64,000 nucleotides of DNA from Escherichia phage ESCO13: the sequence record NC_047770.1; one strand, 5' to 3'. This document shows, piece by piece, positions 6,530 through 52,157 of this stretch (positions within the stretch are counted from its first letter, which is position 1; each line of letters begins with the position of its first letter). A model generated the notes under the pieces. The model ran no database searches. It saw nothing but the letters and a program-made list of their open reading frames with translations, and had not been told where the DNA came from. The position numbers were made by a program, and so were the translations under genes.

Positions 6530-7903
6530 ATGGCAACTTTTCGTGAAAAGGTAGCAACCGTAACTTTACTGTATGGTGCTACATCAATTCGTGAAACCCA
6601 GTTCGATATTCCCCTGATCCTTACAGGTCAGAACGTAACTGGCGAAGCGATTCAATATTACTCTTCTTCCGATGCACTTTTGGAAGCAGGTTATGGATTA
6701 AATGATCCAGCGTATATTATGGCAGTCAAACTGTTTAACGGTTTGTTCCCACCAGATCAAGTTATGGTTGGTAAGCGTGAAGTTACAAACTTTACTCTAA
6801 CTCCAATCGTAGAAGATAGTGCAACTTACACAATTACCATCAAAAATGGTACCAAGAAAAAAGAATTTAAATTCATTGCTGATGACACTGCAACTGCACA
6901 AGAGATTGTAGTTGGTCTGACTGAAATGATCAATGCAGATCTTGTTTATGGCCCACTGTTTACAGTAGCTAACAACGGCGCTGCAATGACTTTCACTCCA
7001 GTAGAAGGTAAGTTTGGTTCTATTGACAGCACAGGTTTCACTCAAGAAACTGTCTATGCTAATGCTATTACGGAAGATATTGCTGCTCTGCATGATATTG
7101 ATAGTAGCTGGTTCTGGACCCTTTCAGATTCCCATGAAACAGAAGATGTTCTAGCTTTGGCTGCATGGGTAGAAGAGAATGATAAAGTTTACTTCTTCTC
7201 TAGCTCTGAACCTGGAATTAAAACGAAAGCAGAAGATAACGTTCTGGAACGACTGAATGACCTCGGTTATAATAACACTTGCTTTGCTTTGTGGATGACC
7301 GATGCAGATTCTGTATTCCCAGAAGCAGCAGTTGTTGGTGCAATCTGTTCTCGTCAACCTGGTTTAACTACTCTTCACGGTAAAACACTGGTAGGTGTAG
7401 AGATCGAGAAACTGGATCAGACTTCGGAAAACAATATTGTTCAACAGAACGGTAACATCTATCGTAAAGAGCATGGAACTCTGTTCTATCGTGATGGATT
7501 GATGGTTAGCGGTTTCTTTGTTGACTATGTTGTTCATGCTTTGTGGTTTAAAGCTCGCACAGAAGAATCACTGTTTACACTGTTTAAACAACAGTCTATG
7601 CTGGGCGGTGGTGTTCGTGCTACTTCAAACGGTCTAGCTTTGATTCGACAAGCTGTTCTGGCTAACCCGATCCAAGTAGGTATCCTCAACGGTTCCATCG
7701 CTAATGAAGTTGTTACTTCTGAAGAGACTGGTTTGCGTGTCGATCTGAAACCTATAGTTTATATTCCTTCTCGTGCCGATATGACCGATGCGCAAATCAA
7801 TGCTCGTCTGGTTGATGGGATGAAGATTGAATATGTTTACGCTGGCTTCTTCCATTACGTTAAAGTTCAGGTCAACGTCCTGACTAACCGTACTGCAAAC
7901 TAA
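6530..7903 (+). CDS. Tail sheath protein
   Basis: 457 aa; size and position immediately before the ~159 aa tube gene and the chaperone/tape-measure pair; a hairpin follows. Confidence 0.55.
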   Translation: MATFREKVATVTLLYGATSIRETQFDIPLILTGQNVTGEAIQYYSSSDALLEAGYGLNDPAYIMAVKLFNGLFPPDQVMVGKREVTNFTLTPIVEDSATYTITIKNGTKKKEFKFIADDTATAQEIVVGLTEMINADLVYGPLFTVANNGAAMTFTPVEGKFGSIDSTGFTQETVYANAITEDIAALHDIDSSWFWTLSDSHETEDVLALAAWVEENDKVYFFSSSEPGIKTKAEDNVLERLNDLGYNNTCFALWMTDADSVFPEAAVVGAICSRQPGLTTLHGKTLVGVEIEKLDQTSENNIVQQNGNIYRKEHGTLFYRDGLMVSGFFVDYVVHALWFKARTEESLFTLFKQQSMLGGGVRATSNGLALIRQAVLANPIQVGILNGSIANEVVTSEETGLRVDLKPIVYIPSRADMTDAQINARLVDGMKIEYVYAGFFHYVKVQVNVLTNRTAN

Positions 7904-7949: not shown

Positions 7950-8429
7950 ATGGATAAAATGCTTACTGGCGTAATGGCCTACGACCCATCTCAAGTTATC
8001 CTTTCATTAGGTGGTTGGGAACCGTGGGGTTTTGCGGCTGATACTAAAATCGTTATTGCTAAATCTAACGATATTATCAACCCTTATTCAGGGACTGATG
8101 GGGACGTTTCATTAGCTTTGAGTCGTAACCGTTTGGGAACACTCACAATGTCTTTGCAACGCACATCTCCAGCTAACGAAGTACTTGCAACATATGCACA
8201 AACAATGTATTCTACTCGTCAAGTAGCATTCAGTGTTTACTTGGAAGACCCACGTGGCTATTACATTAGCACGATTGGATGGATTCAAAGTCAGCCTGAA
8301 GATACTATTGGCGAAATGATTACAGAGAACCAATGGGTTATTGGTCTTAAAGATGCAAGCCTTCTGCGTAATGAAGTTGGTGTAGGTTTGAGCACCCTTA
8401 ACTCAATCTCTGCTCTGACAATTCAATAA
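7950..8429 (+). CDS. Tail tube protein
   Basis: 159 aa; RBS AGAGGA; position after the sheath gene; terminator downstream. Confidence 0.55.
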   Translation: MDKMLTGVMAYDPSQVILSLGGWEPWGFAADTKIVIAKSNDIINPYSGTDGDVSLALSRNRLGTLTMSLQRTSPANEVLATYAQTMYSTRQVAFSVYLEDPRGYYISTIGWIQSQPEDTIGEMITENQWVIGLKDASLLRNEVGVGLSTLNSISALTIQ

Positions 8430-8434
8430 TAAAT

Positions 8435-8457
8435 AAAGGGCAGAAATGCCCTTTTTA
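8435..8457 (+). terminator. Rho-independent terminator after the tube gene
   Basis: AAAGGGC-AGAAAT-GCCCTTT followed by a T run. Confidence 0.55.
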
Positions 8458-8474
8458 TCATTAGAGAGGAAAAT

Positions 8475-8957
8475 ATGTCACAAGAACAAGATAACACAAT
8501 TCAAAAATATGCTCGACCAGAAGAAGTAGTTGAGATTCCGTTAGATGGAAACAGATCTGTTACTTTCCGTATTATGAAGTGGAGTCCATCTAAAGTGTTT
8601 GACAGGATTCCAGAATTAGGTAGTGTTCTGGTTGTTCCTATGACTATGTATAGCACAGCAACAATGTCCGCAGACGAAGACCTTGAGTCACGTATTGCTA
8701 TGGCACTGATCCAACTTTTTGCAGGTTTGGAAGAAAAGAATTTAACTGTCTTTTTGCGTAAAATTTTAGATGAGGTTTATACCCAAGACGGTTATAACGT
8801 TGCAGAAAATTTTGATGAATTATTTATGGCTCACCCAGAACTAGTGTTAGATCTTACTGCTAAAGTTCTGGAGGTAAACTACGGCCCTTTTTTCAAACGA
8901 GGTTTCGGAAAACTGTTCACACAGCTTCAGGCGATGACGAGTTTAGCAGCAAATTAA
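8475..8957 (+). CDS. Tail assembly chaperone (0-frame product)
   Basis: 160 aa ORF immediately upstream of the tape measure; an overlapping -1 frame ORF follows. Confidence 0.55.
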   Translation: MSQEQDNTIQKYARPEEVVEIPLDGNRSVTFRIMKWSPSKVFDRIPELGSVLVVPMTMYSTATMSADEDLESRIAMALIQLFAGLEEKNLTVFLRKILDEVYTQDGYNVAENFDELFMAHPELVLDLTAKVLEVNYGPFFKRGFGKLFTQLQAMTSLAAN

Positions 8958-9223
8958 CACCTGCGATTGAACATGCTATCGACACAGCAACGAAAACCCT
9001 TACTTTGAAGTGGTATGAGGTTATTCTTTGCAAAGTCGTTAAAGATACCTCGGAAACACTGAAAACATTGGATAACTACGGTGTAGATTATCTTTTAAAA
9101 CTATATGAGTATTTAACATACGAAGAGTATGTTGAAGCCATGTATGTTAAAGACACTTCAATAAAGAGAAAACATCAAAACCAGACAAATAAAATGTCAG
9201 ATTTGTTTAAGAAACTTGTTTAA
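8864..9223 (+). CDS. Tail assembly chaperone -1 frameshift extension (G/GT-like)
   Basis: The -1 frame relative to 8475-8957 is open from about 8864 to 9223; slippery heptamer T_TTT_TTC at about 8888-8894 lies in the overlap; predicted fusion about 250 aa. Confidence 0.45.
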   Translation, partial: SSGGKLRPFFQTRFRKTVHTASGDDEFSSKLTPAIEHAIDTATKTLTLKWYEVILCKVVKDTSETLKTLDNYGVDYLLKLYEYLTYEEYVEAMYVKDTSIKRKHQNQTNKMSDLFKKLV

Positions 9224-9243: not shown

Positions 9244-11232
9244 TTGTTAGAAATTAACGCCTCCAGAATTAGTAACGTGGTTACGTTTAAGGTGGACAAG
9301 AACAGTCTCAAGGAAGCAAAAGATGCCGTGTTGAGTGTTCAGAAGTTTGCAAATAAAATGCAACCCACTATGAACATGACCAAGTTTAGACAACAAATGA
9401 AAGAGATTGAGCGTGAACTTAAGAAAGCTCAAACTCAAAGTCAAAAACCTATGCGAGCACCTACTCCCGCCGGAGCGGGTGCTCCTGTAGGAGGATCTGG
9501 TAGACCTAGAACTCCTAAAACCCCGCAAGGAAGAGAAGAAGAAAAAGCTCGTAAAGCTGCTGAACGCGAAGCTAAAGCAGCAGCACGTAGGGAAGATTTA
9601 GGTAATCTTCGTTTGCAGAACTTTAACTACAGAGCAAGAGCATTTAGTAAAGCCAGTCCTGGCGCTATGCAAGAAGCTAGGGACGTTATGGGTAAAGCTG
9701 TAGAGCAATACAAAAAGGGTGAAATAACTCTTCAACGTATGAACCAAGCTCTTGCTCACCAGTTGGATGCTTTACGCAGATCTCATCGTGAAAAGAATGC
9801 TGAAATAGAAGACGAGGTTCGCGGTCGTCGCCGTATTCGTAGAGAGCTAGAAGCAGAAGCTAAAATGCGTATACGTATGCGAAATCGTGAACTTAGAGAT
9901 ATAGAACGCAACCGTAAGCGTGAATTAGCTCAACAAAAACGTGATCGTGATCGTAGATACGGACAATTAAAAGAAGGTGCAGCAGGTCTTAATCCACGCA
10001 TGATTGCATCCTCTTTGATAGGTGCTGGGCTGTTTGCAGGTGGTTCTGTAGTTGGTAACACGTTGATGAATACTAACGAAAGAATTAAACTTGTAAGTCG
10101 TGGTGCTGAAAACGTTCAGACAAACGCCAACGCTATTTTGGCAATGACAGCTTGGGGTGAACAGAACGGTGTAGACTCTGCAAATATTATTAAATCAATA
10201 GATAATATTAAAGACGTTCGTGAACGTCTTGGTAATACTGTTTTAGCTGCAAAGTGGAATGAGAAAGAAGGGAAGTGGAAAGGCGGTGATAATGGCATAA
10301 CTGACATTATGAACTTGTTCGGATGGAATCCAGAACAGCTTAAACCTTTACAGAACGATCCTTTAGCTTTTATTCAGGCTACTGTTAATGAAGGTGAGCG
10401 TCGAGGTATGAACTCTGCTCAAATCGGGCGACTTCTTGAAAACCTTGGTGATGACCTTATGCACTACCAACGTATGTTTAGTAAAAACGGCGAAGGGTAT
10501 AATGAAGTATTGAAAATGCTTCAAAGAACAGGTGCAACATTAACTCAAGAACAAATAGATGCTTCTAAAGAGTTTACTCGTTTTGCTGCAACAGTTCAGC
10601 TTGTAGGTCAAGGTATGCAGAACCACTTCTTAGAGGGTTTTGTGAAAGCCTTACCTAAAGATGATTCTTGGTTGGATAACGTTAAAGTGCTAGATCAGTT
10701 TGCCAAAGATTTAGGTGAAGAACTCGGTAAGACAACAGTTCAATTAGGAGGTTTTGCTAAAGAATTAGGAGATGGCTTCGGATCTTTTACCAATTGGCTT
10801 AAAGAAACATTCCCAGATACATTCGGAGACAACACAGATCCTAATAAATCTATGGCACAAAAAGCATACGAGGCAACGCAAAGTGGAGACAGCAATCCTG
10901 TAGCAGATTGGTTGTACAATTTAACAGGTATTGATACACAAGACATTGGTCGTATGTGGAGAGGAGAACAAACAAGGACACGTGCTTTTGGATTTGGTAA
11001 TCCTCTTGAAGATTTACGTGAATCAGCCTATACACCTAACGTAAGTTTGGCTCGTAATCAACCTGTTGTTGAGAATACGGTAGCAATACCAAGTGATCTT
11101 ATCAAAGTTACGATCAGCCCTTCTTCAGAGTTTGGAAATATTCTTGATGCAAGAATTCAAAATAGCGGAAATAGCATTTTCCAACGTTTGTCTCTTTCAA
11201 CTCTAAGTGGACAATCTAACACTGGTGGTTAA
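9244..11232 (+). CDS. Tail tape measure protein (TTG start)
   Basis: 662 aa; largest ORF after the chaperone pair; Arg/Lys/Glu-rich helical N-terminal region. Confidence 0.65.
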   Translation: MLEINASRISNVVTFKVDKNSLKEAKDAVLSVQKFANKMQPTMNMTKFRQQMKEIERELKKAQTQSQKPMRAPTPAGAGAPVGGSGRPRTPKTPQGREEEKARKAAEREAKAAARREDLGNLRLQNFNYRARAFSKASPGAMQEARDVMGKAVEQYKKGEITLQRMNQALAHQLDALRRSHREKNAEIEDEVRGRRRIRRELEAEAKMRIRMRNRELRDIERNRKRELAQQKRDRDRRYGQLKEGAAGLNPRMIASSLIGAGLFAGGSVVGNTLMNTNERIKLVSRGAENVQTNANAILAMTAWGEQNGVDSANIIKSIDNIKDVRERLGNTVLAAKWNEKEGKWKGGDNGITDIMNLFGWNPEQLKPLQNDPLAFIQATVNEGERRGMNSAQIGRLLENLGDDLMHYQRMFSKNGEGYNEVLKMLQRTGATLTQEQIDASKEFTRFAATVQLVGQGMQNHFLEGFVKALPKDDSWLDNVKVLDQFAKDLGEELGKTTVQLGGFAKELGDGFGSFTNWLKETFPDTFGDNTDPNKSMAQKAYEATQSGDSNPVADWLYNLTGIDTQDIGRMWRGEQTRTRAFGFGNPLEDLRESAYTPNVSLARNQPVVENTVAIPSDLIKVTISPSSEFGNILDARIQNSGNSIFQRLSLSTLSGQSNTGG

Positions 11233-11239
11233 TAAAATA

Positions 11240-11261
11240 CCTCGCTTCGGCGGGGTTTTTT
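11240..11261 (+). terminator. Rho-independent terminator after the tape measure gene
   Basis: CCTCGC-TTCG-GCGGGG (one G-U pair) followed by TTTTTT. Confidence 0.6.
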
Positions 11262-11269
11262 CGTTTCCC

Positions 11270-11299
11270 TTGACACGAAGTTTCTATATGTGTTACAAT
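11270..11299 (+). promoter_or_regulatory. Sigma70-like promoter candidate (TTGACA-N18-TACAAT)
   Basis: Consensus -35 and near-consensus -10 directly after the terminator, upstream of the baseplate gene block. Confidence 0.45.
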
Positions 11300-29799: not shown

Positions 29800-32475
29800 A
29801 TGTTTCCAATTCCAATATTTACTATTATGACCAGCACTGGTGTCGTTCCTCTGCCAGCAGGTATTGTTAAAAAAGTAATCACTTTAGATTACCCAGATAA
29901 CGCTGGTAATTCTAACAGCAGTTTAGCAATTTTGCTTAATGATGGTAGATTGTTTACTCAAGGCGCAAACCTCTTTGGTGAGATTGCAGATGGAACTCGT
30001 AGTGCACGATTCAATAATTTCCACTTAGCTTCTACTGTAGTAGCGGATGTGTTTACCGCAGATCGTTGTTTTGTTATTAAAACTAACAGTGGGGGATGGC
30101 AATATTCAGGATTGACAGCAGGGTTGGTAGGATCTATAGCAGCAGGTGGTACGGATGCATGTGTAACTACCTGGACCAGCTTTCCATCTGTAATAACAGG
30201 GACTATTTCTTTAGCCAATCTTAAAGAGGTTAAAGGAGGGTATAACAATACTCTCTGGTTAATGAATAGTGGTGTTCTTTATGGATCGGGTCAAAACACA
30301 GTAGGTAGTTTAGGTGCAAGCACTACTAACGAAGTTTCTACTCCTCGTCAGATAACAAGCGCAGCAGTTGCTTTTGATGCAGGTTACAACCAATGCTCTT
30401 ATGTCAACAATGTGGGAACCTTGCGTGTTTGTGGAGCTAGTAAAGGTTTAGCAGGTAATAATAACACAACAACAGCTTTTGTCAATGCCACAATATCCAC
30501 TACTGAAACAGTGTATGTCAAAGATTACATCAATACAGTTTCCCAGACAATAGTTGTAGGAGATACCTCCGGTGGCACGGGTACAGTAAACTACTTATAT
30601 GTTAGATCTAATACAGAAACAACCTACACTAAACTGGATACCTTTGCAGCAGGTTTCTCAACATGGAAGTTTCCACCAAGCCGCCACTCTTTTTTCGTTG
30701 GGATCAATAATTCCTTGTGGGCTATTGGTAAGAACTACACTGCAAACTTAGGTTTGGGGTATGATTCTGCGAGCGGAGATCCACTCCAAGTGGGAAAACC
30801 AGTTAAACCTGAAGGAGTGGGTTCTTGGGATATAAACAAGCTCACAAGCGTTCATACGCTGAATATGGATGTTACTAACCAATTAGGTTATCAAGGAACC
30901 TTTTTCGTTTATAATGGAGATATGTATTATTCCGGTATTTGGAAAGATGGGAAAGCCTCGTATCTGTTCAATAGTGGTCTAAACTATAATAAATTCACAC
31001 CAATAGCAAGCTCCGTGATTACGGGCGATATTCTGGCAACAGGCTTAACTACAGATTCTTTAGGAATTTGTATTGTAGGTGGAACTAAACAGTTGACACA
31101 TTCTGTTAGCCCAGAAGGAGGCAAACTTTTCAATATTAAATACACTTCTTCTGCCCCTGCAAACATGACAATATCATCTACTGGTTTAATGACTTTCCAT
31201 GCAGAAGGTGGTTTTGATGCAGGTATGACAGCCTTAAACGCTGAAGGAACAACTTTATCAGATACCTCTGGAGGATATGCTTCAACATTGAGTGTTTACA
31301 CCCCTAGCTTATCTGCGATGGATGTAGGAACAACACAAACAATGGTAGCAGAAATAACGCCAACAGGAGCAGCAAGCTTACCTGGTATGGTTGTTGAGTA
31401 TTTCTCTAATGACCCTACGGTAGCAACAGTTGACCCCGTTACAGGCGTTATTACAGCGGTTGCTGATGGAGGTTGTCGTATCGGTTGTAGAGCAACTTAT
31501 CAAGGTGTGGTAACTGCCGAAGATAGTTCTTATCTCACAGTGAATGCTGTGGTGATTGTGATGGATTATGATTTGACGCAAGAAACTATTCCGGCGGATG
31601 TAAAGGTCAACAGGAGTAACCGTTATGCCAGGGCTTCTGGAGATATCCTTGTACCTACAGAGAGTTCTGCTCCCGTAGCACCTTTAGAATATGTTGGTAC
31701 AACTCCACAAGGTAGACGTGTTGTAGCAGCCAACCGTACACATATCTTTATCAACAATAACTTGACAACAGCTTCCCCGTGGTTGAAGACGAACTTGACA
31801 GTCACGGCATCAACAATCAACTCTCCGGTTGGAACTACAGCTAACACTTACAAGTTAACACCTTCTACAACTTCAGGACAACATATTTTATCAGCAGTGA
31901 ATACAGCTTCTGATATTACAGCAGGTAAGCACTGGGCGGCATCCGTATTCTTGAAGCCAGACGGGATCACTAAAGTGAAACTCAAATTGACTTCAGGAGA
32001 TGAGATTAACGAAGGGACTTATGATCTTGTAGCTGGAACATTTACAGGTGCAGATGCAAACATAATCGATATGGGGAATGGTTGGTATCGTGTAATTCTA
32101 CACAAAGTGACAGTTGCCAAACAAGCATCTATAACCTATGAGATTATAGCTTTGAATGCAAGTGGATCAGACACTTTCGCAGGAGATGGTACGGCAGGTC
32201 TTATTGCTTGGGTTCCACAGCTTGAGATGGGTGATATGACAAATCCAGTTTGGGCTGGGACACCATTTGTTTGTTCTTATGCACGAGACACTACCAGTGC
32301 TGTTACCTTCACTATTCCTAAGAATGGACATACTGGCGTGGACATTTACCACACTGATGGTACTGTGCAACGAGAGGTCTTCACTGGTACAGCTACAACT
32401 TGGATGTTGACGTTCACCGCCGCAAGTGCGGATTGGGGATCGAAGTTCATTACAGGTTTGAAATATTACGACTAA
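29800..32475 (+). CDS. Tail fibre/receptor-binding protein with Big_2 (bacterial Ig-like) domain
   Basis: 891 aa; segment YFSNDPTVATVDPVTGVITAVADGG...LTVNAV matches the Big_2 pattern. Confidence 0.5.
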   Translation: MFPIPIFTIMTSTGVVPLPAGIVKKVITLDYPDNAGNSNSSLAILLNDGRLFTQGANLFGEIADGTRSARFNNFHLASTVVADVFTADRCFVIKTNSGGWQYSGLTAGLVGSIAAGGTDACVTTWTSFPSVITGTISLANLKEVKGGYNNTLWLMNSGVLYGSGQNTVGSLGASTTNEVSTPRQITSAAVAFDAGYNQCSYVNNVGTLRVCGASKGLAGNNNTTTAFVNATISTTETVYVKDYINTVSQTIVVGDTSGGTGTVNYLYVRSNTETTYTKLDTFAAGFSTWKFPPSRHSFFVGINNSLWAIGKNYTANLGLGYDSASGDPLQVGKPVKPEGVGSWDINKLTSVHTLNMDVTNQLGYQGTFFVYNGDMYYSGIWKDGKASYLFNSGLNYNKFTPIASSVITGDILATGLTTDSLGICIVGGTKQLTHSVSPEGGKLFNIKYTSSAPANMTISSTGLMTFHAEGGFDAGMTALNAEGTTLSDTSGGYASTLSVYTPSLSAMDVGTTQTMVAEITPTGAASLPGMVVEYFSNDPTVATVDPVTGVITAVADGGCRIGCRATYQGVVTAEDSSYLTVNAVVIVMDYDLTQETIPADVKVNRSNRYARASGDILVPTESSAPVAPLEYVGTTPQGRRVVAANRTHIFINNNLTTASPWLKTNLTVTASTINSPVGTTANTYKLTPSTTSGQHILSAVNTASDITAGKHWAASVFLKPDGITKVKLKLTSGDEINEGTYDLVAGTFTGADANIIDMGNGWYRVILHKVTVAKQASITYEIIALNASGSDTFAGDGTAGLIAWVPQLEMGDMTNPVWAGTPFVCSYARDTTSAVTFTIPKNGHTGVDIYHTDGTVQREVFTGTATTWMLTFTAASADWGSKFITGLKYYD

Positions 32476-47474: not shown

Positions 47475-47819
47475 TTATTTCTCCTTCTTAAGTGTAATAT
47501 TGGTAACTTCTAAATCTACTTCCACCATATTTGTATCTGGTGGGATGCAATGAGTATAGCCTCGTTGTGCTAGTGATCCATTAATACAAATCGCACTGTT
47601 TGTGGAATTTTTAATGAACACCAAGTTACGGTAGGTATCCAACCCTGCGTCTTCATAGGCATCATAATACATGAATGTGGCCCCTACGTCAAGATCTTCG
47701 AAAGCAATAGGTAAATCCTGACTTTTTTCTTCTTGAATATTGAATCTAAACACGCATACCTCCTCTACCAATTTTGAAGCCCAAATCGTAAGCTTCCTTA
47801 GTGATCTTTTGTAACTCAC
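47475..47819 (-). CDS. Small acidic protein, paralog B (upstream partner of vWA; GTG start)
   Basis: 114 aa; paralog of 46184-46453; the homologous region starts about 22 residues in. Confidence 0.45.
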   Translation of the reverse strand: MSYKRSLRKLTIWASKLVEEVCVFRFNIQEEKSQDLPIAFEDLDVGATFMYYDAYEDAGLDTYRNLVFIKNSTNSAICINGSLAQRGYTHCIPPDTNMVEVDLEVTNITLKKEK

Positions 47820-48309
47820 TTATAGGAAGTGTTACAAGAGGATCATCTTCTTCAATTTCCATCTTGTCATCTTCTGTTTCAATGAGAGTATTATGCACTT
47901 TGTGATAAGGGTTGTCAACACGTTTAAACTTATTCTTTTCTGTGCTGAAAAAACAATCTGGATCTTCTTCGCCATCACCCCAACCTTGGTTAGGATCTCC
48001 GTCAGATTGTTCTGTAGGGATTTCACCTGTAAAATACTCTTCCAGCACCATAGCGATACCATCCCTTGGATTCGAGGAATGCATTAAATCACAAACCTTA
48101 CCCCAATCCATAGCCCATTCGAACCGTTCACGAACGCCATTTTCATCCTCCTTTCCAGAGAAAACACAACCATAACTATCATAGTTGCCATACATCTCTT
48201 CAATAACAACACCGTCCTTCAAAAGAAAGAGATAACAAGGTGATCCGTCGAAAGAAGTAGAAAGGGCAGCTTTGCCCGATTCTTTGCACAAAAAGCTAAA
48301 ACAACCCAT
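47746..48309 (-). CDS. Hypothetical acidic protein
   Basis: 187 aa ORF, coupled to neighbours. Confidence 0.4.
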   Translation of the reverse strand: MGCFSFLCKESGKAALSTSFDGSPCYLFLLKDGVVIEEMYGNYDSYGCVFSGKEDENGVRERFEWAMDWGKVCDLMHSSNPRDGIAMVLEEYFTGEIPTEQSDGDPNQGWGDGEEDPDCFFSTEKNKFKRVDNPYHKVHNTLIETEDDKMEIEEDDPLVTLPISELQKITKEAYDLGFKIGRGGMRV

Positions 48310-51185: not shown

Positions 51186-51698
51186 TTAACGTCGCTTGCT
51201 ACGAGATGAACTCTTTTTACTTAAAGGGCTATTGTAAGATTTACGAGTTGTATAGCTACTATTTGTTTTAAAAGTTTGTCTCGGCTTTTCATAAGTTTTT
51301 ATCTCTTGTTTAGGCTTACTATAAAAATTAGTTTTCGGTTTAGGTGTATTATAATGCTTATTAATAATCGTTCTGTTATCGTTATAATCCCCACTGCTAC
51401 GATTACTACCGCCACTCATCATATGCCCTAACAACATACCTGTAGCAAACTCACCAACACCGCTACTACTAGAACCGCCACCATTGTTGATAATAGTTGT
51501 ATCTCCGTCAGATCCTTGTTGAGCGTATTGTTGAGGAGGTTGTTGGTATTGTGCAGGATTTGTTTCATCCTCGCAAGCTGTTAAAAAGATACAACCAATT
51601 AAAATCAGGGCTAGTTTTTTCATATTTGCTTTCCTCGTTTTGGCTATTAATACATCTGTGTTTGAAATCTCCAGAGAAGCAATAAAGTTGCTCTCCAT
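51186..51698 (-). CDS. Lipoprotein, Gly/Ser-rich (probable true start ATG at about 51623)
   Basis: Internal start gives MKKLALILIGCIFLTAC with lipobox LTAC; RBS GAGGA; mature part is Q/G/S-rich then basic. Confidence 0.5.
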   Translation of the reverse strand: MESNFIASLEISNTDVLIAKTRKANMKKLALILIGCIFLTACEDETNPAQYQQPPQQYAQQGSDGDTTIINNGGGSSSSGVGEFATGMLLGHMMSGGSNRSSGDYNDNRTIINKHYNTPKPKTNFYSKPKQEIKTYEKPRQTFKTNSSYTTRKSYNSPLSKKSSSRSKRR

Positions 51699-51806
51699 CT
51701 CGGTATAAACTCACTTTACTGCCGTTGATTACGCTTGTCAATACAAAAATTACAACAAACAACCCTATTGCAAAACAAATATTTTCAAACACAACCAACA
51801 AGTATT

Positions 51807-52157
51807 TCATTTTAAAAATACCTCATCATCAGTTTCATTATCCCAGAAGAACAAGTCCCAACCATTCGGATCATTCCATTTAGCTGCTGGAGAAGTCCAT
51901 ATTTGCTCGATATCAATATTCAAAACTTCACCGTTTCGTTTTGAAACAGCTTTAGTTAATTCCCAACGGGATACAGGCTCCACTTCCCCTGAACCACTCC
52001 CACAACAAGCTACCACATTAGGAGGCAAATTAATTGGATCTTTGGTCACGATCATAACGCTTACCCCAGGGTAAACTTTTGAAAGATAATCTAAAACGTA
52101 ATCCACATCACCAGATAAATCCCAAACAAGTTCTTGAATTTCATCAAAATTACTCAT
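51807..52157 (-). CDS. Hypothetical protein
   Basis: 116 aa; RBS AGGAGAG. Confidence 0.4.
   Translation of the reverse strand: MSNFDEIQELVWDLSGDVDYVLDYLSKVYPGVSVMIVTKDPINLPPNVVACCGSGSGEVEPVSRWELTKAVSKRNGEVLNIDIEQIWTSPAAKWNDPNGWDLFFWDNETDDEVFLK

What the first reader, a model, noticed from the sequence alone, without database searches (positions are those of the whole stretch)
8864..8957. Programmed -1 ribosomal frameshift in the tail assembly chaperone (G/GT-like)
The chaperone ORF (8475-8957) is overlapped in the -1 frame by an ORF open from about 8864 to 9223. The overlap contains the slippery heptamer T_TTT_TTC (about 8888-8894), which fits the X_XXY_YYZ rule. This is the conserved arrangement upstream of tape measure genes and predicts a second, roughly 250-aa product.
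Basis: partly seen in the sequence, partly recalled or inferred. Interest (0 to 1): 0.5.

Follow-up and report, generated by a model that had tools for sequence, protein, structure and literature searches.

The report
Tail chaperone programmed -1 frameshift
This phAPEC8-like E. coli phage makes a short and a long tail assembly chaperone from one gene by a conserved backward ribosome slip on UUUUUUC, a classic phage device that database records for this phage group mis-annotate as two separate genes.

Summary
The chaperone ORF is 8475-8957. The -1 frame is open 8864-9223. T_TTT_TTC (8888-8894) lies in the zero-frame register needed for tandem slippage. It overlaps a second heptamer, C_CCT_TTT (8885-8891), and both give the same 249-aa product.

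The window is a Phapecoctavirus (99.8% identical to Schickermooser). The gene order is sheath, tube, chaperone, tape measure.

Comparative evidence is strong:
- All 54 related loci (25-100% protein identity, Stephanstirmvirinae and Vequintavirinae) keep T_TTT_TTC in frame, plus a -1 ORF of 101-128 codons.
- The two Phe codons are TTT and TTC in 44 of 44 distinct genes. Other invariant Phe columns vary freely.
- Substitution periodicity switches to the -1 frame right after the G stop, including a stretch with no possible start codon.
- The first start codon in the -1 frame wanders from codon 28 to 83 across lineages.

No 3' RNA structure is supported. An upstream GGAGG 13 nt from the heptamer is a likely stimulator.

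None of the 17 related GenBank/RefSeq records whose feature tables I read annotates the join. The same device was proposed in December 2025 for sister clades, and KPP10 has the site at the homologous position.

Verdict: real, ordinary in kind, and a useful annotation correction.

The parts
6530..7903 (+). Tail sheath gene (context)
   Evidence: Pfam DUF3383 at 7e-20 and PHROG 205 'tail sheath' at 3e-100. Annotated as tail sheath in RefSeq Schickermooser.
7950..8429 (+). Tail tube gene (context)
   Evidence: Weak Pfam match to KPP10_Orf10 (E 3e-5, 24.4 bits, just under the 25-bit cut-off) and PHROG 280. It occupies the same position as phi92 gp131, which the phi92 cryo-EM paper names the tail tube protein.
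8435..8454 (+). Terminator-like hairpin followed by a T-rich tail, between the tube gene and the chaperone gene (context)
   Evidence: 8-bp stem found by the scan. Annotated as a terminator in the Schickermooser record.
8475..8957 (+). Short chaperone ORF (G / TAC-N), 160 aa, with a GAGG ribosome-binding site at 8466-8469
8870..8874 (+). Internal Shine-Dalgarno-like GGAGG, 13 nt before T_TTT_TTC and 10 nt before C_CCT_TTT; a candidate 5' stimulator
   Evidence: Sequence read directly. GAGG or GGAG(G) sits at the same offset in 25 of 32 distinct contexts. The Glu codon here is GAG in 34 of 39 genes, against 134 GAG to 394 GAA elsewhere in the same genes. The spacing falls in the 9-14 nt range given for -1 stimulation in PMC5009743.
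8885..8894 (+). Slippery decamer C_CCT_TTT_TTC, holding the heptamers C_CCT_TTT (8885-8891) and T_TTT_TTC (8888-8894)
   Evidence: The register was checked against the zero frame. T_TTT_TTC is in register in 54 of 54 related loci. The codons are TTT and TTC in 44 of 44 distinct genes.
8894..8957 (+). Dual-coding overlap: the G C-terminal tail in frame 0, and the RFR motif plus a Gly/Ser-rich linker in frame -1
   Evidence: G143 is GGT in 44 of 44 genes, which fits constraint from the -1-frame Phe of RFR.
8894..9223 (+). -1 frame extension (T / TAC-C part), 109 codons plus a stop codon at 9221-9223
   Evidence: Purifying selection acts in the -1 frame, including 8957-9004, where no start codon exists upstream (pS 0.69, pN 0.29). 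Third-position variability follows the -1 frame.
9005..9223 (+). 72-aa TTG ORF that public records annotate as a separate hypothetical protein; here read as the C-terminal part of GT
   Evidence: No Shine-Dalgarno sequence lies upstream. PHROG 16039, 'unknown function'.
9244..11232 (+). Tape measure protein gene (TTG start, GAGGA ribosome-binding site), the presumed client of G and GT
   Evidence: PHROG 16051 'tail length tape measure protein'. RefSeq annotation. It occupies the same position as phi92 gp134, which the phi92 cryo-EM paper names the tape measure protein.

Best explanation
Gene 8475-8957 encodes the short tail assembly chaperone (G, 160 aa). A minority of ribosomes slip back one base when the two tRNA-Phe occupy UUU-UUC (8889-8894), or when tRNA-Pro and tRNA-Phe occupy CCU-UUU (8886-8891). 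They re-pair on UUU-UUU (or CCC-UUU) and continue in the -1 frame to the stop codon at 9221-9223.

The result is a 249-aa fusion (GT). It keeps the whole folded chaperone domain (residues 1-140). It replaces the 20-residue G tail with a flexible linker and a roughly 85-residue helical T domain.

By analogy with lambda gpG/gpGT, many copies of G and a few of GT would coat the tape measure protein (9244-11232). The T domain would then recruit the tube protein (7950-8429) to start tail polymerisation. Neither product would stay in the virion.

The slip appears to need no 3' RNA structure. It is probably boosted by the internal GGAGG (8870-8874) pairing with 16S rRNA 13 nt upstream.

Shown here: the anatomy, the conservation, and translation of the -1 frame from the slip site onward.

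Inferred: that the ribosome rather than RNA polymerase slips, the role of the Shine-Dalgarno-like element, the low efficiency, and the assembly roles of G and GT.
For: 1. Anatomy. The heptamer is in register, the -1 frame is open 8864-9223, and the other frame is closed.

3. Conservation. 54 of 54 loci across Stephanstirmvirinae, Vequintavirinae and IMG/VR contigs carry N-T_TTT_TTC in register. Each has a -1 ORF of 101-128 codons ending 8-227 nt before the next long ORF, at the tape measure position.

4. Synonymous constraint. F139 is TTT and F140 is TTC in 44 of 44 distinct genes. The preceding codon always ends in T (CCT, TGT or AGT). Other invariant Phe columns vary: 24 TTC to 20 TTT, and 14 TTT to 30 TTC.

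5. The -1 frame is translated from the slip site.
- Substitution periodicity follows frame 0 before the heptamer and frame -1 immediately after the G stop.
- pS 0.69 against pN 0.29 in 8957-9004, which has no start codon upstream in that frame.
- RFR is conserved in frame -1 just after the slip, and it forces GGT in 44 of 44 genes in frame 0.

6. No independent initiation. The first ATG, GTG or TTG in the -1 frame ranges from T-codon 28 to 83 between lineages, almost never with a Shine-Dalgarno sequence. In several lineages it lies after most of the conserved domain.

7. The slip falls at residue 140, the end of the last confident helix (121-141) of the modelled chaperone domain.

8. Shift-prone class. 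In E. coli, UUN A-site codons are among the more shift-prone. Heptamers in which X and Z are all pyrimidines are favoured (PMC4066793).

9. Shine-Dalgarno-like element. It lies at a spacing of 13 nt, with a GAG codon bias of 34/39 against 134/528. The effective range is 9-14 nt (PMC5009743).

10. Deep homology. KPP10 has the same Pfam family at 9e-25. Its site G_GTT_TTT is at the homologous position, followed by RFR in a 100-codon -1 ORF. This matches the published proposal for Vandenendeviridae and Andersonviridae (PMC12846349).

11. The phi92 virion cryo-EM paper lists the homologous sheath, tube and tape measure proteins (gp130, gp131, gp134). It never mentions gp132 or gp133, as expected for chaperones.
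Against: - There is no direct protein, RNA or reporter evidence for this phage or any close relative. Everything is comparative.
- No 3' stimulatory structure was found. The fold z-score is +1.1, the consensus energy is -1.0 kcal/mol and there is no covariation. Efficiency may therefore be low, and it is unknown.
- The Phe-Phe dipeptide is itself invariant at the protein level. Part of the conservation of the T-run is protein constraint; only the synonymous positions speak for the signal.
- In this clade the C at 8894 is also forced, because T there would create TAA in the -1 frame.
- The Fisher P values treat related sequences as independent.
- The Shine-Dalgarno-like element is absent from the Certrevirus-like clade, ChuuTotoro and FBKp34, so it is not essential.
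- The T-domain model is poor (pLDDT 65). No fold-based function could be assigned to it.
- Ribosomal slippage and transcriptional slippage give the same protein, and sequence alone cannot fully separate them.
Confidence: 0.85

Rival explanations
1. Transcriptional slippage. RNA polymerase stutters on the T6 template run and adds one U to a fraction of the mRNAs. Normal translation of those transcripts then yields the same GT protein.
For: The site is a homopolymer run, and the product (PFFQ) would be identical. A paper cited (Vladimirov et al. [quoted passage not shown]
Against: The bacterial slippage described in PMC5009743 involves runs of 9 A or T. Here the run is exactly 6 in 54 of 54 loci and never longer. 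It is only 5 at the homologous site in KPP10. The run always sits in the X_XXY_YYZ register, although shared ancestry also explains that. A codon-biased Shine-Dalgarno-like element at the spacing that stimulates ribosomal -1 shifts has no role in transcription.
Confidence: 0.08
2. Two separate genes, as in the public annotations. The 72-aa ORF 9005-9223 would be translated from its own TTG start, or by re-initiation after the G stop codon, and no fusion would be made.
For: RefSeq and GenBank records annotate it this way. Gene callers produce stand-alone proteins of 64-85 aa. PHROGs hold them as families 16039 and 10409.
Against: No Shine-Dalgarno sequence precedes TTG 9005. The conserved residues (PAI..A..A) and purifying selection in the -1 frame lie upstream of any start codon. 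The first available start shifts from codon 28 to 83 between lineages. In the Mydovirus-like and Hena1 lineages it comes after most of the conserved domain. This reading leaves the invariant TTT-TTC and GGT codons unexplained.
Confidence: 0.04
3. A chance overlap. The heptamer and the open -1 frame would be coincidental, and the region after 8957 would be non-coding spacer.
For: In one genome, an in-frame heptamer in a 31-codon overlap is expected about 0.13 times.
Against: The arrangement is present in 54 of 54 loci down to about 25% identity. Selection follows the -1 frame, and the T-domain sequence is conserved. The median -1 open stretch across stop codons in the window is 24 codons, against 119 here.
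Confidence: 0.01

Closest known systems
Phage lambda gpG/gpGT and the conserved tail assembly chaperone frameshift of dsDNA tailed phages (Levin 1993; Xu, Hendrix and Duda 2004, 2013, 2014, as summarised in PMC5009743)
   Same: Two overlapping ORFs lie between the major tail gene and the tape measure gene. [quoted passage not shown] The long product shares the whole chaperone domain and gains a C-terminal domain. No 3' RNA structure is evident, and the products are expected to be absent from virions.
   Different: The heptamer is different: T_TTT_TTC, overlapped by C_CCT_TTT. This is a contractile-tailed phage of about 150 kb. The protein belongs to Pfam Phage_TAC_15, and no lambda-type family was hit. 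A codon-biased 5' Shine-Dalgarno-like element is present. Nothing has been shown experimentally for this phage.
Proposed -1 frameshift in the chaperone locus of Vandenendeviridae (Pseudomonas phage Adele, Pakpunavirus) and Andersonviridae, with an invariant GTTTTT motif (PMC12846349, December 2025)
   Same: The Pfam family is the same (KPP10 gp013 at 9e-25). The gene order is the same. The slip site is at the homologous position at the end of the domain, followed by RFR in the -1 frame. The mis-annotation of the downstream piece as a hypothetical protein is the same.
   Different: That paper analysed Vandenendeviridae and Andersonviridae, not Stephanstirmvirinae or Vequintavirinae. In the window the run is T6, preceded by C, and forms a full tandem heptamer. 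In KPP10 the site is G_GTT_TTT, in which only the A-site tRNA re-pairs perfectly.
E. coli dnaX and IS-element -1 frameshift cassettes
   Same: A heptamer is paired with an upstream Shine-Dalgarno-like sequence within the 9-14 nt range that stimulates -1 shifting.
   Different: No 3' stem-loop or pseudoknot is present. The heptamer is different. The purpose is to make a minor extended isoform, not a truncated subunit or a transposase fusion.
Phage T7 gene 10A/10B frameshift (G_GUU_UUC; from my own knowledge and as cited)
   Same: A -1 shift on a U-run that ends in UUC and is decoded by tRNA-Phe, giving a minor C-terminally extended structural-module protein in an E. coli phage.
   Different: The protein is a capsid protein, not a chaperone. 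[quoted passage not shown] No such element was looked for here.

Membership tests
G/GT-type tail assembly chaperone with programmed -1 frameshift | The gene pair lies between the major tail (tube) gene and the tape measure gene | tested here: met
   Tube 7950-8429, chaperone 8475-8957, -1 ORF to 9223, tape measure 9244-11232. The order is the same in phi92, whose tube (gp131) and tape measure (gp134) proteins are named in the cryo-EM paper.
G/GT-type tail assembly chaperone with programmed -1 frameshift | The second ORF overlaps the 3' end of the first in the -1 frame and lacks its own initiation signals | tested here: met
   The overlap is 94 nt. No start codon occurs before 9005 and no Shine-Dalgarno sequence precedes it. 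Start positions are not conserved across lineages.
G/GT-type tail assembly chaperone with programmed -1 frameshift | A slippery X_XXY_YYZ heptamer sits in zero-frame register inside the overlap and is conserved in relatives | tested here: met
   T_TTT_TTC at 8888-8894 is present in 54 of 54 loci. The synonymous positions are fixed in 44 of 44 distinct genes.
G/GT-type tail assembly chaperone with programmed -1 frameshift | The downstream frame is under protein-coding selection from the shift site onward | tested here: met
   Periodicity switches frame. pS 0.69 against pN 0.29 in the stretch with no start codon. RFR and the T domain are conserved. Within the overlap itself, the -1 frame behaves as a poorly constrained linker (dN/dS 1.6).
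G/GT-type tail assembly chaperone with programmed -1 frameshift | Chaperone homology or fold of the first ORF | tested here: met
G/GT-type tail assembly chaperone with programmed -1 frameshift | Both products are made in a fixed ratio, are required for tail assembly, and are absent from virions | not testable with these tools
   Indirect only: the phi92 virion cryo-EM paper never mentions gp132 or gp133.
Natural in-frame G-T fusions as independent proof of a single polypeptide | Some relative encodes G and T in one uninterrupted ORF | tested here: not met
   All 41 G-type hits are 158-175 aa, and all 18 T-type hits are 64-85 aa. No fusion was found at this search sensitivity. This does not count against frameshifting.
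dnaX-type -1 cassette (5' Shine-Dalgarno, heptamer, 3' stem-loop) | A Shine-Dalgarno-like sequence 9-14 nt 5' of the heptamer | tested here: met
   GGAGG at 8870-8874 leaves a 13-nt gap. It is found in 25 of 32 contexts, with a GAG codon bias. Function is inferred, not shown.
dnaX-type -1 cassette (5' Shine-Dalgarno, heptamer, 3' stem-loop) | A stable, conserved 3' stem-loop or pseudoknot 5-9 nt after the heptamer | tested here: not met
   MFE -11.2 kcal/mol with z +1.1. The consensus folds have essentially no covariation support: 0 of 7 and 1 of 20 pairs show a compensatory change.
Programmed transcriptional slippage | A long homopolymer run (9 A or T in the bacterial cases reviewed) | tested here: not met
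   The run is exactly T6 in 54 of 54 loci, and T5 in KPP10. The criterion comes from PMC5009743.
Vandenendeviridae/Andersonviridae chaperone frameshift (PMC12846349) | The same protein family, a shift site at the homologous position, and the GTTTTT motif | tested here: inconclusive
   Family and position are met for KPP10. The literal GTTTTT motif is present in Vequintavirinae relatives (TGT TTT TTC). In the window the run is preceded by C (CCT TTT TTC).

The most novel reading that the evidence does not exclude
The frameshift signal may be more than a bare heptamer. It would be a conserved composite cassette shared across the whole Phage_TAC_15 family: Stephanstirmvirinae, Vequintavirinae, the KPP10 lineage and, per the Adele paper, Vandenendeviridae and Andersonviridae.

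Its parts would be:
- a codon-biased internal Shine-Dalgarno element 13 nt upstream;
- an unexplained fixed AAC codon between that element and the heptamer;
- the U-run;
- the invariant dual-coded GGUUUCG (G-F in frame 0, R-F-R in frame -1) 6-9 nt downstream.

In this reading the last element acts at the RNA or nascent-peptide level to set the G:GT ratio without any 3' RNA structure. Alternatively, part of the GT pool could come from RNA polymerase stuttering.
Probability: 0.15. Interest if true: 0.45.

Novelty: new member of a known kind. Interest (0 to 1): 0.25.

Why it matters
The finding corrects a systematic annotation error. In the 17 related records whose feature tables I read, the T part is either a stand-alone 'hypothetical protein' or is not annotated at all. 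PHROGs hold it as 'unknown function' families. The related set is large: 131 records matched the 4.8-kb tail region at the DNA level, and 357 matched the fusion protein.

These phages (phAPEC8-like, phi92-like, rV5-like) are widely used as therapy and biocontrol candidates, so correct structural-gene annotation has practical value.

It also extends the recently proposed chaperone frameshift of Vandenendeviridae and Andersonviridae to two more subfamilies. The slip site is positionally homologous across the whole Pfam Phage_TAC_15 family, so the recoding event is ancient.

Finally, it offers a compact cassette with a 5' Shine-Dalgarno-like element, a U-run and no 3' structure, for studying how low-level -1 shifting is tuned in E. 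coli.

It does not change the current understanding of tail assembly.

Tried and rejected
- 3' stimulatory structure. I folded 8895-8975 and two family alignments and found nothing above shuffles and no covariation. Rejected.
- Natural in-frame G-T fusions. I searched the 5.8-billion-protein collection with the fusion and with the T part alone. Only separate short calls came back.
- Solved structures by sequence. No hit for G or for T.
- Structure of the T domain. The model was too poor (pLDDT 65, pTM 0.35) to search with, so its binding partner remains an analogy.
- Window-only statistic on -1 open stretches across stop codons. It is confounded by ordinary next genes that overlap by ATGA. I replaced it with the per-heptamer extension test.
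- Other in-register T_TTT_TTC sites in the window (gene 29800-32475, codon 297; minus-strand gene 47746-48309, codon 119). They are not among the sites with long -1 extensions: every site other than this one and the ATGA-overlap case closes within 29 codons. Treated as chance.
- T_TTA_AAA near the end of minus-strand gene 51807-52157. The -1 ORF there is simply the next gene, with its own ATG.
- Literature. No paper in the searchable library links Phapecoctavirus with a chaperone frameshift. Vladimirov et al. 2022 could not be read.
- Stop-codon readthrough and +1/-2 shifts. Both are excluded by nearby stops in those frames.

Full report
**What the window is**

The 4.8 kb around the finding is 99.8% identical to Escherichia phage vB_EcoM_Schickermooser and to other phAPEC8-like phages (Phapecoctavirus, Stephanstirmvirinae). 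It is about 75% identical to phi92-like phages.

The local genes, in order:
- tail sheath, 6530-7903 (DUF3383, PHROG 205);
- tail tube, 7950-8429;
- a 160-aa ORF, 8475-8957;
- a -1-frame ORF that ends at 9223;
- a 662-aa tape measure gene, 9244-11232.

In the phi92 cryo-EM paper the proteins at the corresponding positions, gp130, gp131 and gp134, are the sheath, tube and tape measure proteins. gp132 and gp133 are never mentioned.

**Checking the observation**

All coordinates are right.
- ORF 8475-8957 starts at ATG, preceded by GAGG.
- The -1 frame is open from 8864 to 9223, giving a 94-nt overlap.
- The +1 frame is closed.
- The run TTTTTT is 8888-8893 and C is 8894. The zero-frame codons are CCT (8886), TTT (8889) and TTC (8892). 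T_TTT_TTC is therefore in the register that tandem -1 slippage requires.
- A second heptamer in register, C_CCT_TTT (8885-8891), overlaps it. Both give the same junction, NYGPFF|QTRFRK, and a 249-aa product.

Within the window alone the statistics are modest. About 0.13 in-frame heptamers are expected in a 31-codon overlap. However, of 82 in-frame heptamers in 69 ORFs, only this site leads into a long -1 extension. The one other case is an ordinary overlapping next gene.

**What the first ORF is**

It matches Pfam PF21822 (Phage_TAC_15) at E 1.3e-23 and PHROG 3840, 'tail assembly chaperone'.

An AlphaFold model built on 23 homologues has pLDDT 75.6. Its last confident helix spans residues 121-141, so the slip at residue 140 falls exactly at the end of the folded domain.

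- RBSTP2171;
- B. subtilis YqbN;

**Comparative test of the frameshift**

I collected 15 loci from GenBank phages and 39 from IMG/VR. They span Phapecoctavirus, Justusliebigvirus, unclassified Stephanstirmvirinae, and the Vequintavirinae genera Vequintavirus, Seunavirus, Mydovirus, Henunavirus and Certrevirus. Protein identity to the window's chaperone ranges from 25 to 100%.

Every one of the 54 loci has N-T_TTT_TTC in the zero-frame register at the aligned position. The 53 complete loci have a -1 ORF of 102-128 codons beyond it, ending 8-227 nt before the next long ORF at the tape measure position. The remaining locus is cut by its contig end after 101 open codons.

One caveat applies. One of the two search patterns for the IMG/VR loci contained the Phe-Phe motif at the amino-acid level, but it did not constrain codons.

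**Synonymous sites**

Among 44 distinct genes:
- the first Phe is TTT in 44 of 44, and the second is TTC in 44 of 44;
- the preceding codon always ends in T, although it encodes Pro, Cys or Ser;
- two other invariant Phe columns in the same genes are mixed: 24 TTC to 20 TTT, and 14 TTT to 30 TTC.

The constraint therefore acts on the RNA, not only on the protein.

**The -1 frame is translated from the slip site**

- Upstream of the heptamer, the most variable codon position is position 3 of frame 0.
- Directly after the G stop codon, it is position 3 of frame -1 (0.65 against 0.19-0.30). This includes 8957-9004, where the window has no ATG, GTG or TTG upstream in that frame.
- Nei-Gojobori counts for that stretch give pS 0.69 and pN 0.29.
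- Inside the overlap, frame 0 remains the more constrained. The -1 frame there encodes a variable Gly/Ser-rich linker.
- Immediately after the slip, the -1 frame encodes a conserved RFR. This explains why the frame-0 Gly143 codon is GGT in 44 of 44 genes.

**Against independent initiation**

The first possible start codon in the -1 frame moves from T-codon 28 to 83 between lineages and almost never has a Shine-Dalgarno sequence. In the Mydovirus-like and Hena1 lineages it comes after most of the conserved T domain.

This explains the database picture. It holds 'hypothetical proteins' of 64-85 aa with inconsistent starts and separate PHROG families of unknown function. None of the 17 related GenBank/RefSeq feature tables I read shows a joined CDS.

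No natural in-frame fusion was found.

**Stimulators**

No 3' structure is supported. The fold of 8895-8975 is weaker than its shuffles (z +1.1). The two consensus folds have essentially no covariation: 0 of 7 and 1 of 20 pairs show a compensatory change.

Upstream, GGAGG (8870-8874) lies 13 nt before T_TTT_TTC.
- GAGG or GGAG(G) is at the same offset in 25 of 32 distinct contexts.
- The Glu codon that supplies it is GAG in 34 of 39 genes. Elsewhere in the same genes the split is 134 GAG to 394 GAA. The P values there ignore relatedness between sequences.
- The review PMC5009743 gives 9-14 nt as the spacing at which Shine-Dalgarno-like sequences stimulate -1 shifts.

I therefore regard a 5' stimulator of the dnaX/IS type as likely in this clade. 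It is not essential, because three lineages lack it.

**Ribosome or polymerase?**

Both mechanisms give the same protein. I favour the ribosome for four reasons:
- the run is only T6, never longer in 54 loci, and only T5 at the homologous KPP10 site;
- the bacterial transcriptional slippage reviewed involves runs of 9;
- all-pyrimidine heptamers with UUY in the A site are in the shift-prone class in E. coli (PMC4066793);
- the Shine-Dalgarno-like element makes sense only for ribosomes.

This step remains an inference.

**Relation to what is known**

The arrangement is the classic lambda G/GT device (PMC5009743).

A December 2025 paper proposed a conserved -1 frameshift with an invariant GTTTTT motif in the chaperone locus of Vandenendeviridae and Andersonviridae. 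It noted that those clades are related to Vequintavirinae and Stephanstirmvirinae, but it did not analyse the locus in either subfamily.

I checked KPP10.
- Its chaperone belongs to the same Pfam family (9e-25).
- The pairwise alignment places its G_GTT_TTT at the position of the window's slip site.
- Its 100-codon -1 ORF also begins with RFR.

The window's site is therefore the same ancient recoding event, here in a stronger tandem-heptamer form.

No paper in the searchable library links Phapecoctavirus with this frameshift.

**Verdict**

This is a genuine, deeply conserved programmed -1 frameshift of a well-known kind. It is new only as an un-annotated member in this phage group.

I put about 0.85 on the ribosomal frameshift as stated, and somewhat more on a GT fusion being made by some frame change at this site. 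What remains untested is the mechanism (ribosome or polymerase), the efficiency and the binding partners.

Noticed in passing
window 8435-8454: A terminator-like hairpin (8-bp stem followed by a T-rich tail) sits in the 45-nt gap between the tube gene and the chaperone gene. It is annotated as a terminator in Schickermooser. It could lower transcription of the chaperone and tape measure genes relative to the sheath and tube genes.
   Followed up: partly
window 11239-11299: A strong terminator-like hairpin (7 bp, 5 of them GC, then TTTTTCGTTT) lies directly after the tape measure stop codon. It is followed by a near-consensus promoter-like site, TTGACA-18-TACAAT with an upstream TG, at 11270-11299. 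This suggests a transcription-unit boundary before the baseplate genes.
   Followed up: no
window 8877-8879 (Asn135 codon): The Asn codon between the Shine-Dalgarno-like element and the heptamer is AAC in 43 of 44 distinct genes. Elsewhere in the same genes the split is 128 AAC to 95 AAT. This is an unexplained synonymous constraint 9-11 nt upstream of the slip site.
   Followed up: partly
window 8901-8907 (GGTTTCG): The motif GGTTTCG, 6-9 nt after the heptamer, is conserved from the window to Vequintavirinae and Pseudomonas phage KPP10. It encodes G-F in frame 0 and R-F-R in frame -1. Dual coding explains it, but an RNA-level or nascent-peptide role was not excluded.
   Followed up: partly
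window 9244-9246: The tape measure gene starts with TTG, 8 nt after a GAGGA ribosome-binding site. RefSeq annotates the same start. The -1 ORF ends only 20 nt upstream, so the chaperone and its client are tightly packed and may be translationally linked.
   Followed up: no
window 9005-9223; PHROGs 16039, 10409, 8811: Fragments of the T domain are held as separate 'unknown function' PHROG families, and as database proteins of 64-85 aa with inconsistent starts. This is an annotation artefact that spreads through automated pipelines.
   Followed up: yes
public records matched: Several records that are 99% identical to this E. coli phage, or that fall within the phi92 and rV5 clusters, are labelled as phages of Acinetobacter (vB_AbaM_ABPW7), Campylobacter (A150, A110a, C2, C9 and others), Pseudomonas (PsgM04F) or Klebsiella (ZCKP1). 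These host labels look doubtful.
   Followed up: no
window 30690-30695 (gene 29800-32475) and minus-strand gene 47746-48309: Two further T_TTT_TTC heptamers lie in the zero-frame register of long ORFs. Neither is among the sites with a long -1 extension; apart from the chaperone site and one ordinary overlapping gene, every in-frame heptamer's -1 frame closes within 29 codons. They look like chance sites.
   Followed up: yes
window 51565-52157, minus strand: T_TTA_AAA lies three codons before the stop of gene 51807-52157, with 81 open codons in the -1 frame. This is simply the next gene (51565-51810), which has its own ATG in an ATGA overlap. It is not a recoding site.
   Followed up: yes
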